Position numbers and translations under genes: made by a program. 64,000 nt of DNA from Dictyostelium discoideum. Lineage: Eukaryota. Below the pieces are notes generated by a model. The model had not been told where the DNA came from and searched no databases. It saw only the letters and a program-made list of their open reading frames with translations. Of the stretch, positions 55,680-60,102 are shown one piece after another. Where the stretch lies: contig CM000150.2 of NCBI GenBank assembly GCA_000004695.1, positions 3,328,001 to 3,392,000 of the forward strand, in the 5' to 3' direction. Position 1 is the stretch's first letter, and every line of letters starts with the position of its first letter.

Positions 55680-58600
55680 TCATTTTTGAGAAACATTTAA
55701 AATGTTATTAATGTTACCTCTATCGTCAGTTAAAATTGGTTTTTGGGGATCATATTCCCAATTTCCATCGATAACAAATTTGTATTCGTACCTACCAGGC
55801 GCCAAGCGAACAACGACTGACCTTATCTGTGTTTCGCTGGTACTATCTGAGCATTTCTCTTCAATTCTCGACAAATCTATTGTTTGAGGCGGGGTATTCA
55901 ATTGTGGATCATAGGTCAAGAGTACTCTTTTATCCCAATTTAGGAATGATCCAGTCAATTGAATAACATGACCACTATATGGCCATGTAAAAGTAATGGG
56001 TACTAATATTTCTGCATCTTTTGATAATAATAATAAATTATTACTACTTAAATTATTAATGTTATTATTATTATTATTATTATTATTATTATTATTATTA
56101 TTATTATTATTATTGGTATTAATTAAATTATTATTATTAGAACTATTATTGGCAATATTGTTAATATTATTACTATTATTATTATTATTAATAATATTAT
56201 TATTGCCACTATTATTACTAATAGTATTATTATTATTATTATTATTATTATTATTAGATGCGATAGAAACAAAATCGTTATCAATTTCATTATTTTGAAT
56301 ACCATCTTTTTCATTTGGTAAAGATCCAACTAAACTACTTGTTAAAATATCTTGGTTATTCCCAATAGCTAAGCCATTGTTAATAATATTGCCATGTGAA
56401 TTAGTGTTGTTGTTTGTTGAATTCAAACCATTATTTCCATTAATATCGTTGTTATTTGAATTTCCAATAATACCACCAATTATATTGGTGGTATTATTGT
56501 TATTATTCAATGTTGATGTTGGTACTGATGTTGATGTTGGAGTAGTTGATATTATGGCTGATGGTGTTGGTGTTGTTATTGGTGCTATTGTTGTTGATGA
56601 GGTTGGTGTTGTTGGTGTTGGGGTTGTATTATTTACTGATGATGTTGCAGTAGTGGTGGAGGAAGTGATTGAATTATTATTAGAATTATTATTAATATTA
56701 TTATTATTATTATTATTATTATTATTATTATTATTATTATTATTATTATTATTATTATTATTATTATTATTATTATTATTATTGTTATTGGTGGTGGTGT
56801 TGTTATTGGTGGTGTTGTTGGTGTTGTTGTTGGTGTTGTTGGTGTTGTTGGTGTTGTTGGTGTTGTTGTTGTTGGTATTGCTGGTATTGTTGGTGTTGTT
56901 GTTGTTAGTGTTAGTGCTTGTGTTTGTGTTTGTGTTGTTGTTGTTGTTGGTGTTGTTGTTGTTGTTGTTGTTGTTGTTGTTGTTGTTGTTGTTGTTGTTG
57001 TTGTTGTTGTTGTTGTTGGTGTTGTTATTGTTATTATTATTATTATTATTATTATTATTATTATTAGTATTATTATTATTATTATTATTATTATTATTAT
57101 TATTATTATTATTATTATTATTATTATTATCATTACAATTTGATACTAATTTATTATTGTTTGATGAATCATTATCCAAAGTGTTGGAATTATCAGAATC
57201 TGGAATGATATCAATAATTGAAGAACTAGACTCACAAAACATTAATTCTTCAATATTACTAGAGACGTTACAGTTTTTATAGGTTAGAATCTTCTTTTTA
57301 AATGCTAATTCAACCATGGACGTAATTACAGCCAAAGGCATTTCTCTAATTTCATTTGGTCCTGATTCTTTTAAAAATGTTGCAAAACCATATCTACCAT
57401 TTCTTGAAATTGGATGTGATGATTTTAAAAAGCTTTCCAATTGTCTCCAAGTATGTGGTAAAAAGAAATCGGGGTTTGGAACTGATGGATCTATACCTTC
57501 GAATCTACCAGTGGATGGATATAAAACACGGGTTGGCTTCTCACCATCGATAATAAGTGAACCAGATAATGCAATTGGTAATACAATCAAATCGAAATTA
57601 TAACATGGGTATCCAAGTGTTTTCATTCTTTTTAAAATTTGAGATTCTGTTGGTCTAAAATAATCTTTTTTTAAACTCTCCAATGTCTTTAAAAGATGAG
57701 ATAGAATCTTTTTAGTACTTGCAGTTAAATCAATATTTGTTCTATTTTCTAATGAATAAACTGGAAAAGCCCATCTAAAAATAAAAATAAAAAAAAGTAA
57801 AATTAAATTAATACCTCTATTATTTTTAATTGGTGAGTGGTTTTAAAAATAATTATCATAATACTTACAAAATTTGTCTAATTTCTCTAACAACAATTAA
57901 ACCCAAAGCTTGAGCATCATATAAATAATTGTTTAATTTAGTATAACCAATTTTATTGATTAAAGAGTAGGGAAGTTTAATACCAATCTCTGAAAAGGTT
58001 AATTTACGATGCTCACTCTTATCTAAAAGATCTAAAAGTGGATAAAATCTTGATAATGTATCCTTTAAGAATGCAGAGTTACTTGCCGGAATAATTTCAA
58101 ATGTATTATTTATATCTGATACATTATTTGTTGATCTTGGTGATATAATTGGACTTGTATTTGTTGGTGATATAACTTTTCCTTTTGATTTCTTCTTTTT
58201 CTTATTATTATTATTATTATTATTATTATTATTATTATTATTATTATTATTATTATTATTATTATTATTATTATTATTATTATTATTATTATTATCATTG
58301 TTGTTGTTTTTGTTATTCGTATTATTATTATTATTATTATTATTATTATTTAAATTAATACTATTACTTCTTAAATTAATAAATGTATTATTTATATTAT
58401 TACTACTTGATGAAAGATCCATAGAATTAAAATTATTTTCAATTTGAGGAGAGATACTGACAGGTTCATCAAATTCGAAATCATTATCAATATCATTACC
58501 AATTGTATCTTTTGAAATATCAATTCTTTCAACTGGATCAATATATGACGTTGGAATTATTGGTAATGATCTTTGATAATGTTGAGATGATTGATCTTCA

Positions 58601-60102
58601 GTAATTATTGCGCAATCATCATTTTCAGCACCGTTTACATTAATATTATTGGCAAATAATGATAATACAGATTCAATTTCGAAATTATCTTCTTTATAAA
58701 ATGAGTTTTGCTCTTGCTCTTCATTGTTTTTATTATTATTATCATCATCATCATATGAAGAATCATCTTCATTGTTATCAATATCGTTTTCATTGTCAAC
58801 TGTATCCATTTCAAATTGTTGCTCTGATTGGTTCTCAAATTCCAATACACTATTCTTTGAATGTGGTGAATTTAATGTGTCATCTGGTGGTGAAGATGAT
58901 TCTTTATCTCCACCTGTTATTTGTTTCTTTTCAATTGAATCATGTGGTTGCACTTCCTCTTGAATAACCTTTTGTGGGATTTGTTGTGCTGTCACATGTT
59001 GTTGTTGCTGTTGCTGTTGTTGTTGCTGTTGTTGTTGCTGCTGTTGTTGCTGCTGTTGATGTTGATATTGTTGAACACTTTGTTGAGTTGGTGTTTGTTG
59101 TGGTACCTGTGGTGTATGTTGTTGTGACTGTTGTTGGAATGGTGATTGATTAGATTGATGTTGATGTTGGTATTGTTGTTGATGATGATATTGATTTTGT
59201 ACATGTGGATTATTATGTTGTGAGAAATTTTGAATATTATTACTTTGATTTTTGATAGCCTGAATATTTGTATTATTTAATGATCTTGTTAAATTATTCT
59301 TTTGTTGTTGGTGGTGATGAAGATGATGAAGATGTTGTTGTTGTTGTTGTTGTTGTTGTTGTTGTTGTTGTTGTTGTTGTTGTTGTTGTTGTTGTTGTGG
59401 TTGGTATTGGTATGGTTGTTGGTTTTGGCTTAAATTTTGGCTATGGTAGTGATATTGTTGCTGTTGTTGTTGTTGTTGTTGCTGTTGCTGTTGTTGTTGT
59501 TGTTGTTGTTGTTGTTGTTGTTGTTGTTGTTGTTGTTGTTGTTGTTGTTGTTGTTGTTGTTGTTGTTGTTGTTGTTGTTGATACTGAACTACTTGTTGAG
59601 GATGTTGTGATTGATTTAATAAAGGTGGTGAATTTGGTGCTTTAATAGTACCTTTTAATAAAGATATCCATTCATATGAAGCGGTTGCAGAATATTTTAA
59701 AACGTCAGAAGCATGAGTTGAATGAATTAAGAATACTTGATATCTTCTAAATGTTAAAGTATTTAAAACGTTTGAAAAATCTCTATCACCTGAAATTAAA
59801 ACGATACAATGAGGTGGTTTATTATCGATTACCAATTTCAAAATCTCTACCAATATAGCGATATCAGATGCATTTGATTTATTTCTAGTGACATCGTGTA
59901 ATAGTACACCACATTCTTGTAGATTGGATCTTAACTCATCTTTAATTAACTTTAAATTGGCAAATGCTGATATATTCTTTAGCACACCTCTTTGTAATGC
60001 AAATGATCTAATTGCATTTACAACATGAATACCTTTTAAATTTGATGGAACTGCACAATTCTCTAAATCCCAAAATACATTAACTGGTAAATCTGGTTGC
60101 AT
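55680..60102 (-). CDS. NYN ribonuclease-domain + LOTUS/OST-HTH + C-terminal CBM48 (AMPK-beta-type glycogen-binding) protein, about 1442 aa (MARF1-like RNA-binding architecture fused to a carbohydrate-binding module)
   Basis: Two exons: join(57869..60102, 55680..57774). Donor TT|GTAAGT (rc 57863-68), acceptor tatttttAG (rc 57775-76). Phase 2 is preserved (..VREIRQI-L-WAFPVYSLENRTNIDLTASTKKILSHLLKTLESLKKDYFRP..). This joins the 745-aa and 667-aa ORFs of the track. NYN/limkain-type domain PVNVFWDLENCAVPS..DIAILVEILKL..IVLISGDRDFSNVL..QVFLIH. PolyQ/H linker. LOTUS-like domains LKDTLSRFYPLLDLLDKSEHRKLTFSEIGIKLPYSLINKIGYTKLNNYLYDAQALGLIVV and LKTLESLKKDYFRPTESQILKRMKTLGYP. Long polyN/T region. C-terminal CBM48 ITFTWPYSGHVIQLTGSFLNWDKRVLLTYDP..LAPGRYEYKFVIDGNWEYDPQKPILTDDRGNINNILNV. 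Confidence 0.8.

What the first reader, a model, noticed from the sequence alone, without database searches (positions are those of the whole stretch)
55680..60102. Two large ORFs merge into one gene: a NYN nuclease + LOTUS protein carrying a C-terminal AMPK-beta-type glycogen-binding module
A GTAAGT donor at 57863-68 (minus strand) and a tatttttAG acceptor at 57775-76 join the 745-aa and 667-aa ORFs in frame. The joined protein has an N-terminal NYN/limkain-b1 ribonuclease domain, two LOTUS (OST-HTH) RNA-binding modules, long polyQ/H and polyN/T linkers, and a C-terminal CBM48 glycogen-binding domain of the kind found in AMPK beta subunits. NYN+LOTUS is the MARF1-type architecture for post-transcriptional RNA decay. 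Fusing it to a glycogen-binding module is not a combination I know from characterised proteins. It suggests an RNA-decay or RNA-binding factor tethered to glycogen particles or to an AMPK-like scaffold. This is the most novel-looking item in the window.
Basis: partly seen in the sequence, partly recalled or inferred. Interest (0 to 1): 0.8.

Follow-up and report, generated by a model that had tools for sequence, protein, structure and literature searches.

The report
NYN RNase with glycogen-binding tail
Two adjacent reading frames in this slime-mould-like genome are one spliced gene for a predicted RNA-cutting enzyme that ends in a glycogen-binding module, a conserved but unstudied design also found in other amoebae and, in a looser form, in chytrid fungi.

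Summary
On the minus strand a 745-codon ORF and a 698-codon open frame are joined by one 94-nt intron (not 93), GTAAGT...TTTTTAG, giving a 1442-aa protein. Homologues read straight through the junction.

Pfam scores three domains:
- NYN, 83.8 bits
- OHA (OST-HTH-associated), 71 bits
- AMPK1_CBM/CBM48, 80.6 bits

The OST-HTH/LOTUS model itself never scores. AlphaFold on a compact homologue shows three tandem winged-helix modules, and the third is OHA.

Six of seven active-site positions of mouse MARF1 NYN are kept. The seventh is Asn in this family. All four glycogen-contacting residues of AMPK beta1 are kept. There is no AMPK beta subunit-interaction domain.

The fusion is not a one-off:
- NYN, winged helices, OHA and CBM48 occur as one continuous ORF in Clastostelium and in about six unnamed GC-rich eukaryotic contigs.
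- Chytrid fungi carry NYN, winged-helix repeats and CBM48.
- Asgard archaea have the core without the CBM.

The core resembles Arabidopsis MNU1/2 (NYN, two LOTUS, OHA) more than MARF1.

No paper on the fusion was found. Function is inferred: an RNase tethered to, or gated by, glycogen. I rate it a new variant of a known kind, of moderate interest.

The parts
57869..60102 (-). Exon 1 (2234 nt). ATG at 60102-60100. Encodes aa 1-744 plus two bases of codon 745.
   Evidence: The start matches the homologues' N-termini, M..(E/D)(V/L)PVNVFWD(I/L)ENC.
57775..57868 (-). Intron, 94 nt, phase 2. GTAAGT donor and T-rich tract with AG acceptor. GC 15%.
   Evidence: Homologues are colinear across the junction.
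55680..57774 (-). Exon 2 (2095 nt). Third base of codon 745 through aa 1442, plus the TAA stop at 55682-55680. AATAAA-type motifs follow the stop.
59683..60084 (-). NYN (PIN-like) ribonuclease domain, aa 7-140. Active-site residues D12, N15, D80, S104, D106 and D108. N49 sits at the position of MARF1 D215.
   Evidence: Pfam 83.8 bits. MARF1 NYN 6fdl/5yaa at E 1e-12. Residue mapping against PMC6217404. Column statistics. Coordinates.
58078..59682 (-). Linker 1, aa 141-675: polyQ/His, acidic and polyN low-complexity sequence. It is absent from the compact homologues.
   Evidence: No Pfam hit in its non-repetitive part (protein 4).
57756..58062 (-). Winged-helix module 1 (LOTUS-like, GY-x-KL motif), aa 681-751. 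It is interrupted by the intron after codon 744/745.
57513..57719 (-). Winged-helix module 2, aa 764-832. Contains the family's most conserved motif, SLKKDYF(K/R)PTE.
   Evidence: AF2. Weak, sub-threshold Pfam DUF7602/DUF7625 hits here in relatives, above threshold only in P0035. Alignment A1.
57264..57458 (-). Winged-helix module 3, which is the Pfam OHA (OST-HTH-associated) domain, aa 851-915.
   Evidence: Pfam OHA 71 bits. AF2.
56007..57263 (-). Linker 2, aa 916-1334: polyN/Thr/Ser low-complexity sequence.
55686..56006 (-). CBM48 / AMPK-beta-type glycogen-binding module, aa 1335-1441. Sugar-contact residues W1358, K1410, W1417 and N1434. It carries an insertion of about 25 aa between the two halves.
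   Evidence: Pfam AMPK1_CBM 80.6 bits. AMPK beta1 1z0m at E 1.6e-13. The homologue's model has TM 0.9 to AMPK beta CBMs. Residue conservation.

Best explanation
**What is shown.** The locus is one two-exon gene of a dictyostelid-like genome. It encodes a 1442-aa cytosolic multidomain protein with this order:
1. an N-terminal NYN (PIN-like) metal-dependent ribonuclease
2. a long disordered Q/N-rich linker
3. three tandem winged-helix modules (LOTUS-like, DUF7602-like, OHA)
4. a second N/T-rich linker
5. a C-terminal AMPK-beta-type CBM48

The NYN active site and the CBM sugar-contact residues are conserved. The whole architecture is conserved in other eukaryotes.

**What is inferred.**
- The winged-helix block selects or holds RNA, or RNP partners such as helicases and decapping factors, for cleavage by the NYN domain. 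This is how LOTUS domains serve MARF1.
- The CBM48 anchors the enzyme on glycogen particles through the long flexible linker. RNA cleavage would then be concentrated at glycogen granules, or withheld from the cytosol by them.
- RNA cleavage therefore becomes dependent on the size and state of the glycogen store, without going through AMPK.
For: **Gene structure.**. The junction is supported by homology.

**One continuous ORF with all domains in relatives.** L001 has a 700-aa ORF and L002 a 654-aa ORF. Clastostelium supplies a Trinity transcript.

**NYN.**
- Pfam 83.8 bits. The nearest solved structure is MARF1 NYN.
- The residues matching MARF1 D178, N181, D246, S270 and D272 are present, plus D108 of the GDxDF motif.
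- These positions are invariant in 113-130 of 138 related NYN domains.
- MARF1 needs both its NYN aspartates and its LOTUS domains to cut ssRNA (PMC6217404).

**Middle block.** AF2 gives pLDDT 87.5 and three a1-b1-a2-a3-b2-b3 modules. Fold matches are winged helices, including TDRD7 and TDRD5 LOTUS.

**OHA.** Pfam 71 bits. Characterised OHA proteins are RNA-linked: the MNU1/2 nucleases and the RNP-granule protein Md1.

**CBM48.**
- Pfam 80.6 bits. AMPK beta1/beta2 CBMs are the best PDB hits.
- The four residues critical for the AMPK beta1-carbohydrate interaction (PMC4032982) are W1358, K1410, W1417 and N1434 here. They are kept in nearly all NYN-linked CBMs, chytrid ones included. This argues for selection on glucan binding.
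Against: - No experiment and no transcript data are available for this locus.
- One of the four MARF1 catalytic aspartates (D215) is Asn in the whole family. D215A abolishes ssRNA cleavage by MARF1 in vitro. In related NYN domains that position varies: D 44, N 39, E 30.
- The Pfam LOTUS model does not score, so RNA binding by the middle block rests on fold and analogy.
- AMPK beta1 L146 is Arg here, and the CBM carries an insertion of about 25 aa, so ligand preference may differ.
- The NYN part of the full-length AF2 model was poor, with pLDDT below 50.
- Some CBM48/AMPK1_CBM domains act mainly in protein-protein contacts.
Confidence: 0.55

Rival explanations
1. The CBM48 is not a glycogen anchor here. 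It would be a protein-interaction or regulatory module, for example docking on a kinase as the AMPK beta CBM docks on the alpha kinase lobe. The protein would then be an ordinary cytosolic or P-body RNase.
For: The CBM has a family-specific insertion that replaces the AMPK beta1 Ser108 loop, and L146 is changed. From my own knowledge, AMPK-beta CBMs are known to make protein contacts.
Against: All four carbohydrate-contact residues are conserved across amoebozoan and chytrid members. That is not expected if sugar binding were lost. No AMPKBI domain or other AMPK-binding element is present, since the protein ends right after the CBM.
Confidence: 0.15
2. The NYN domain is catalytically weak or dead. 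The protein would act as an RNA-binding or RNP-granule scaffold, like Oskar, TDRD or Md1, placed on glycogen. It would store or localise mRNAs rather than cut them.
For: Asn replaces the MARF1 D215 equivalent, and D215A abolishes ssRNA cleavage by MARF1 in vitro. The long Q/N-rich linkers and winged-helix arrays are typical of granule scaffolds. The OHA protein Md1 sits in RNP granules.
Against: The other active-site positions (D12, N15, D80, S104, D106, D108) are almost invariant in the clade. The D/N/E variation at the remaining site is widespread among otherwise canonical NYN domains.
Confidence: 0.2
3. It is an organellar RNA-processing nuclease like Arabidopsis MNU1/2, and the CBM is incidental.
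For: It has the same NYN, two winged helices, OHA order that is described for MNU1/2.
Against: The NYN beta-strand 1 starts at residue 7, with acidic residues at positions 4, 12 and 14. That leaves no room for a mitochondrial presequence. No WW domain was found. The CBM residues are under conservation.
Confidence: 0.05
4. These are two separate genes, or an unspliced read-through that yields only the 745-aa NYN protein. The join would be an artefact of reading.
For: There is no transcript evidence for this locus. The stop codon TAA lies inside the donor GTAAGT, so an unspliced mRNA would give a 745-aa product.
Against: - The second frame has no ATG until the middle of a conserved domain (KRMKTL).
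- The 94-nt gap cannot hold a terminator and a promoter.
- A winged-helix domain is split by the gap, and its last strand with the invariant Trp lies in exon 2.
- Homologues carry everything in one uninterrupted ORF.
Confidence: 0.03

Closest known systems
Arabidopsis MNU1/MNU2 (mitochondrial NYN nucleases)
   Same: The domain order NYN, two LOTUS-type winged helices, OHA matches the description in PMC9181182. Both are predicted RNA-end or RNA-decay nucleases.
   Different: MNU1/2 are mitochondrial and carry a putative WW domain. The window protein has no presequence and no WW, and it ends in a CBM48. Its two first winged helices do not score the Pfam OST-HTH model.
MARF1 / limkain-b1 (animal NYN, RRM and LOTUS RNase)
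   Same: It is the nearest solved NYN structure, 6fdl/5yaa at E 1e-12. The shared logic is an NYN nuclease that depends on winged-helix RNA-binding modules.
   Different: MARF1 has RRMs and many Pfam-positive LOTUS repeats, no OHA and no CBM. MARF1 D215 is Asn here.
Arabidopsis DNE1 (DCP1-associated NYN endoribonuclease)
   Same: It is a cytoplasmic NYN endoribonuclease with OST-HTH domains that works in mRNA decay (abstracts).
   Different: DNE1 has no OHA or CBM48 reported. Partner binding (DCP1) was not tested here.
AMPK/SNF1 beta-subunit carbohydrate-binding module (CBM48)
   Same: It gives the best sequence and fold match for the C-terminus. W100, K126, W133 and N150 are conserved.
   Different: There is no C-terminal alpha/gamma-binding domain and no Ser108 loop, and there is an insertion of about 25 aa. 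The module is attached to a nuclease rather than to a kinase scaffold.
CBM48-targeted enzymes of glucan metabolism (SEX4, LSF1)
   Same: They follow the same principle, a CBM48 that brings a catalytic domain to an alpha-glucan particle. LSF1 and SEX4 are weaker PDB hits.
   Different: Their catalytic cargo acts on the glucan itself. Here the cargo is a predicted RNase, with no link to glucan chemistry.
Plasmodium Md1 (LOTUS + OHA)
   Same: It contains OHA next to a LOTUS domain. It localises to cytoplasmic RNP granules with helicases, CCR4-NOT and decapping factors (PMC9750867).
   Different: Md1 has no NYN and no CBM48, and its N-terminal extension is lineage-specific.

Membership tests
NYN domain nucleases (PF01936) | Score above the Pfam gathering threshold | tested here: met
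   83.8 bits against a cut-off of 24.2, aa 7-140.
NYN domain nucleases (PF01936) | Conserved acidic active site (MARF1 D178, D215, D246, D272, plus N181 and S270) | tested here: inconclusive
   D12, N15, D80, S104 and D106 are present, with an extra D108. The D215 equivalent is N49. That site is D, N or E in 113 of 138 relatives. Activity was not assayed.
MARF1 / limkain-b1 family | RRM domain(s) between NYN and LOTUS | tested here: not met
   No RRM hit in any non-repetitive segment.
MARF1 / limkain-b1 family | Tandem Pfam-positive OST-HTH/LOTUS repeats | tested here: not met
   PF12872 is absent at E<=1 in the window protein and at E<=0.1 to 10 in relatives.
LOTUS / OST-HTH domain | Winged-helix fold a1-b1-a2-a3-b2-b3 resembling solved LOTUS domains | tested here: inconclusive
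MNU-type NYN-LOTUS-LOTUS-OHA nucleases | NYN followed by an OHA domain (PF14418) above threshold | tested here: met
   OHA scores 71 bits against a cut-off of 26.1. The order NYN, wHTH1, wHTH2, OHA is seen in all family members.
MNU-type NYN-LOTUS-LOTUS-OHA nucleases | Mitochondrial targeting and a WW-like domain | tested here: not met
   The NYN domain starts at residue 7, so there is no presequence. There is no WW hit. No targeting predictor was available.
CBM48 / AMPK1_CBM (PF16561) | Score above the Pfam gathering threshold | tested here: met
   80.6 bits against a cut-off of 26.8. AMPK beta1 1z0m at E 1.6e-13.
CBM48 / AMPK1_CBM (PF16561) | Carbohydrate-contact residues W100, K126, W133 and N150 of AMPK beta1 | tested here: met
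   W1358, K1410, W1417 and N1434. They are conserved across the family and in most chytrid forms.
CBM48 / AMPK1_CBM (PF16561) | Beta-sandwich fold superposable on AMPK beta CBM | tested here: met
   Tested on homologue P0002, not on the window protein itself. TM 0.86-0.92 and rmsd 1.5-3 A to 4yee, 1z0m and 2f15.
CBM48 / AMPK1_CBM (PF16561) | Actual binding of glycogen or alpha-glucan | not testable with these tools
   Needs a pull-down or ITC with the recombinant domain.
AMPK/SNF1 beta subunit | C-terminal alpha/gamma subunit-binding domain (AMPKBI) after the CBM | tested here: not met
   The protein stops one residue after the CBM. There is no such Pfam hit.

The most novel reading that the evidence does not exclude
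NYN-winged-helix-CBM48 proteins would be an AMPK-independent route by which glycogen-storing protists and chytrid fungi couple the state of their carbohydrate reserve to mRNA fate. The RNase would be parked on glycogen granules and released or activated as the granules are consumed, for example at starvation-induced development, encystment, or spore and zoospore germination. That release would trigger turnover of a defined mRNA set. The core enzyme (NYN, wHTH, OHA) would trace back to Asgard archaea.
Probability: 0.25. Interest if true: 0.7.

Novelty: new variant of a known kind. Interest (0 to 1): 0.45.

Why it matters
If the CBM really tethers an active RNase to glycogen, there would be a direct physical link between an energy store and post-transcriptional control. 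Such a link is so far known only through kinase signalling (AMPK).

Dictyostelium is genetically tractable, and its glycogen content changes strongly during development. The idea could therefore be tested with a knockout and point mutants.

The family also gives a function-ready handle on the poorly understood OHA domain. Its Asgard relatives bear on the origin of eukaryotic RNA-decay machinery.

If the CBM proves to be only a docking surface, this is one more uncharacterised multidomain NYN protein.

Tried and rejected
- **Exact look-up.** Neither the 1442-aa nor the 745-aa protein is in the 15-billion-protein collection. This says nothing about novelty, because close dictyostelid entries seem to be missing from it altogether.
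- **Second word-indexed search.** Searching with the family alignment added only P0015, a 622-aa protein with a weak CBM-only match.
- **Structure prediction of the linker-free window construct.** I modelled homologue P0002 instead.
- **Full-length P0002 model.** The NYN part was unusable, with pLDDT below 50. Foldseek returned only CBM hits.
- **Profile of winged-helix module 1 against PDB sequences.** No hit at E<=10.
- **hhalign between the three winged-helix modules.** No detectable mutual homology, so they are not recent internal repeats.
- **afdb50 library.** Not available, so I could not retrieve a UniProt name for the protein.
- **Taxon of the closest compact homologues (P0002-P0007).**
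  - The run SRR8475483 appears in no paper.
  - GC is 51-58%, so they are not dictyostelids.
- **P0041 as a possible prokaryotic NYN-CBM48.** Rejected. Its 175-kb contig carries SRF-TF, Promethin and fragmented gene calls, so it is eukaryotic.
- **Literature searches** for NYN with CBM48, glycogen or AMPK1_CBM found nothing relevant.
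Full report
**Setting.** The window has about 22% GC throughout and long polyQ and polyN coding runs, the signature of a dictyostelid genome. The closest named relative of the protein is from the dictyostelid Synstelium polycarpum, with 95% identity over the NYN domain. 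The neighbouring gene on the same strand is an Aha1 homologue.

**Observation.**
- The minus strand reads ...AGACAAATTTT|GTAAGT...TTTTTATTTTTAG|ATGGGCT....
- The donor GT is at 57868-57867 and the acceptor AG at 57776-57775. The intron is 94 nt, not 93, with 15% GC.
- It splits codon 745 after its second base, giving TT|A = Leu. The join gives 4329 nt = 1442 codons plus stop.
- The stop codon of the first ORF is the TAA inside GTAAGT.
- I enumerated every in-frame, stop-free GT..AG pair in the neighbourhood and found 38. Only 57868/57775 combines a consensus donor with a pyrimidine-tract acceptor and keeps the sequence colinear with homologues.
- The second frame has no ATG before the middle of a conserved domain, so it cannot be an independent eukaryotic gene.

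**Homology across the junction.**
- The Synstelium protein reads ...KQIRQIFWAFPRC... against the window's ...REIRQIL|WAFPVY....
- In the family alignment the Trp that starts exon 2 is invariant.
- The compact homologues P0005 and P0007 carry all domains in single uninterrupted ORFs of 700 and 654 aa on contigs of 2.3-2.8 kb.
- The Clastostelium recurvatum member is a Trinity transcript.
- I regard the gene model as settled short of direct transcript data.

**Domains.**
- Pfam scores NYN at 83.8 bits (aa 7-140), OHA at 71 bits and AMPK1_CBM at 80.6 bits. All are far above their cut-offs.
- The non-repetitive part of linker 1 matches nothing.
- The OST-HTH/LOTUS model PF12872 does not score. This holds for the window protein, the 11 family members scanned, and more distant relatives including Asgard ones.
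- About 35% of the residues are Gln or Asn. The two linkers, roughly aa 141-675 and 916-1334, are missing from homologues that are otherwise colinear over 99% of a linker-free query.

**Middle block.**
- AlphaFold2 on residues 178-444 of homologue P0002 used a 14-row alignment that included the window's own pieces. It gave mean pLDDT 87.5.
- The model has three consecutive a1-b1-a2-a3-b2-b3 modules. They correspond to window aa 681-751, 764-832 and 851-915, and the third is the OHA match.
- A profile of module 1 finds nothing in PDB sequences, and the three modules are not detectably homologous to each other.
- Module 1 has the G-Y-x-K-L...hydrophobic pattern that I recognise from LOTUS domains (my own knowledge).
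- Module 2 gives only weak hits to DUF7602 and DUF7625. They are below threshold everywhere except P0035 (30.1 bits against a cut-off of 27).
- 'Two LOTUS domains' is therefore plausible at fold level but not demonstrated. 'Three winged helices, the last being OHA' is what the data show.

**NYN active site.**
- The best solved relatives are the human and mouse MARF1 NYN domains (6fdl, 5yaa; E about 1e-12).
- In mouse MARF1, D178, D215, D246 and D272 are each required for ssRNA cleavage, and N181 and S270 are conserved (PMC6217404).
- The ungapped 5yaa alignment maps these residues to window D12, N49, D80, D106, N15 and S104. The window also has D108 of a GDRDF motif.
- Three of the four aspartates are therefore kept. 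The D215 site is Asn in every family member.
- Among 138 related NYN domains that site is D 44, N 39, E 30, while the other positions are 113-130 of 138 identical.
- I read this as a normal active site for this NYN clade. Activity must still be tested.

**CBM48.**
- The best PDB sequence matches are AMPK beta1 and beta2 CBMs (E 1.6e-13), followed by LSF1, Sip2 and SEX4.
- The P0002 model superposes on AMPK beta CBMs with TM about 0.9.
- W100, K126, W133 and N150 are the critical residues for the rat AMPK beta1-carbohydrate interaction (PMC4032982). They align to W1358, K1410, W1417 and N1434.
- They are kept in nearly all NYN-linked CBMs examined.
- L146 is Arg here. A variable insertion, about 25 aa here and up to about 70 aa in relatives, replaces the Ser108 loop.
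- The protein stops one residue after the CBM. It lacks the beta-subunit alpha/gamma-binding domain and is not an AMPK subunit.

**Distribution.**
- A full HMMER pass over 1.84 billion representatives gave 7554 hits at E<=1e-3. Most are single-domain NYN or CBM proteins, and 84 hits reach E<=1e-30.
- I then scanned for domains with my own sub-profiles, with Pfam and with source names. The results fall into four groups:
  1. **NYN, wHTH1, wHTH2, OHA, CBM48.** The window, Clastostelium recurvatum (Amoebozoa, with wHTH2-OHA duplicated), and about six unnamed sequences from GC-rich (51-58%) contigs. A truncated Synstelium model also belongs here.
  2. **NYN, 1-4 wHTH1-like repeats, CBM48, without OHA.** Chytrid fungi (Entophlyctis, Physocladia, Boothiomyces, Chytriomyces, Siphonaria), all labelled 'hypothetical protein'. 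One further eukaryotic metagenome contig has the same layout.
  3. **The core without CBM in eukaryotes.** Other Amoebozoa (Phalansterium, Soliformovum) and a marine protist version with an added RRM.
  4. **The core without CBM in archaea.** Heimdallarchaeota and Hodarchaeales MAGs.
- Whether the amoebozoan and chytrid fusions share one origin is untested.

**Comparison with known systems.**
- The core order matches Arabidopsis MNU1/2 as described in PMC9181182: NYN, two LOTUS, OHA, plus WW. It matches MNU1/2 more closely than MARF1 (NYN, RRM, many LOTUS) or DNE1.
- The other characterised OHA protein, Plasmodium Md1, sits in RNP granules with helicases, CCR4-NOT and decapping factors.
- CBM48 modules that target enzymes to glucan particles are known (SEX4, LSF1), but their cargo acts on the glucan.
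- I found no paper mentioning NYN together with CBM48, AMPK1_CBM or glycogen binding. I could not query dictyBase, UniProt or InterPro.

**Mechanism (inferred).**
- By analogy with MARF1, the NYN domain cuts RNA that the winged-helix block binds or recruits.
- The CBM48, on a disordered tether of about 400 residues, attaches the enzyme to glycogen.
- This would localise decay to glycogen granules, or sequester the RNase until glycogen is consumed.
- Rivals: the CBM is a protein-docking surface; the NYN is inactive and the protein is a granule scaffold; the protein is organellar like MNU (disfavoured by the N-terminus); or there are two separate genes (essentially excluded).

**Verdict.** The finding is real and correctly read in outline. 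It is a conserved but uncharacterised variant of the NYN/LOTUS/OHA RNase theme with a glycogen-binding module, not a singular oddity. It is worth an experiment in Dictyostelium. The functional claim is still a hypothesis, and the interest score reflects that.

Noticed in passing
P0012 (Heimdallarchaeota MAG, 494 aa) and P0031 (Hodarchaeales MAG, 532 aa): Asgard archaeal proteins are colinear with the eukaryotic NYN, wHTH1, wHTH2 (DUF7602-like), OHA core (E 1.5e-54 to the family profile) but lack the CBM48. This hints that the RNase core predates eukaryotes.
   Followed up: partly
P0025, P0026, P0027, P0029, P0033, P0059 (chytrid fungi); P0041 = L003:8001-9305: Chytrids carry NYN, 1-4 wHTH1-like repeats and a C-terminal AMPK1_CBM, without OHA. 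All are 'hypothetical protein'. Whether they share an origin with the amoebozoan fusion or arose by convergence is open.
   Followed up: partly
window 59956-59958 (codon N49): The position matching the catalytic D215 of mouse MARF1 is Asn in every member of this family. It varies (D 44, N 39, E 30) among 138 related NYN domains, while the other active-site positions are nearly invariant.
   Followed up: partly
window about 55800-55920 (aa about 1363-1400); A1 columns 1030-1090: The CBM48 carries a family-specific insertion of variable length, about 25 aa here and up to about 70 aa in relatives. It lies between the W100-type strand and the K126-type strand, where AMPK beta1 has its Ser108 loop.
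   Followed up: no
P0009 (Clastostelium recurvatum, 921 aa): The wHTH2-OHA unit is duplicated in tandem (residues 374-521 and 654-809) before the CBM48.
   Followed up: no
window 60870-62021 (-): The upstream neighbour on the same strand is a 383-aa Aha1 homologue, an Hsp90 ATPase activator (Aha1_N 100 bits, AHSA1 66 bits).
   Followed up: yes
window 51929-52666 (+): A 245-aa Pro/Ala/Gly-rich ORF ends in an SH3 domain (29.9 bits). It is probably one exon of an actin-cytoskeleton adaptor.
   Followed up: partly
window 55996-56298, 56377-57282, 59268-59645 (+): Long Leu/Val-rich ORFs lie antisense to the polyN and polyQ runs. They are mirror images of the repeat codons, not genes.
   Followed up: no
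L001 (GC 58%), L002 (GC 51%): The closest compact full-architecture homologues (47% identity, about 75% in the NYN domain) come from GC-rich eukaryotes that I could not name. They are closer to the window protein than the Clastostelium protein is (37-40% identity against 45-51%).
   Followed up: partly
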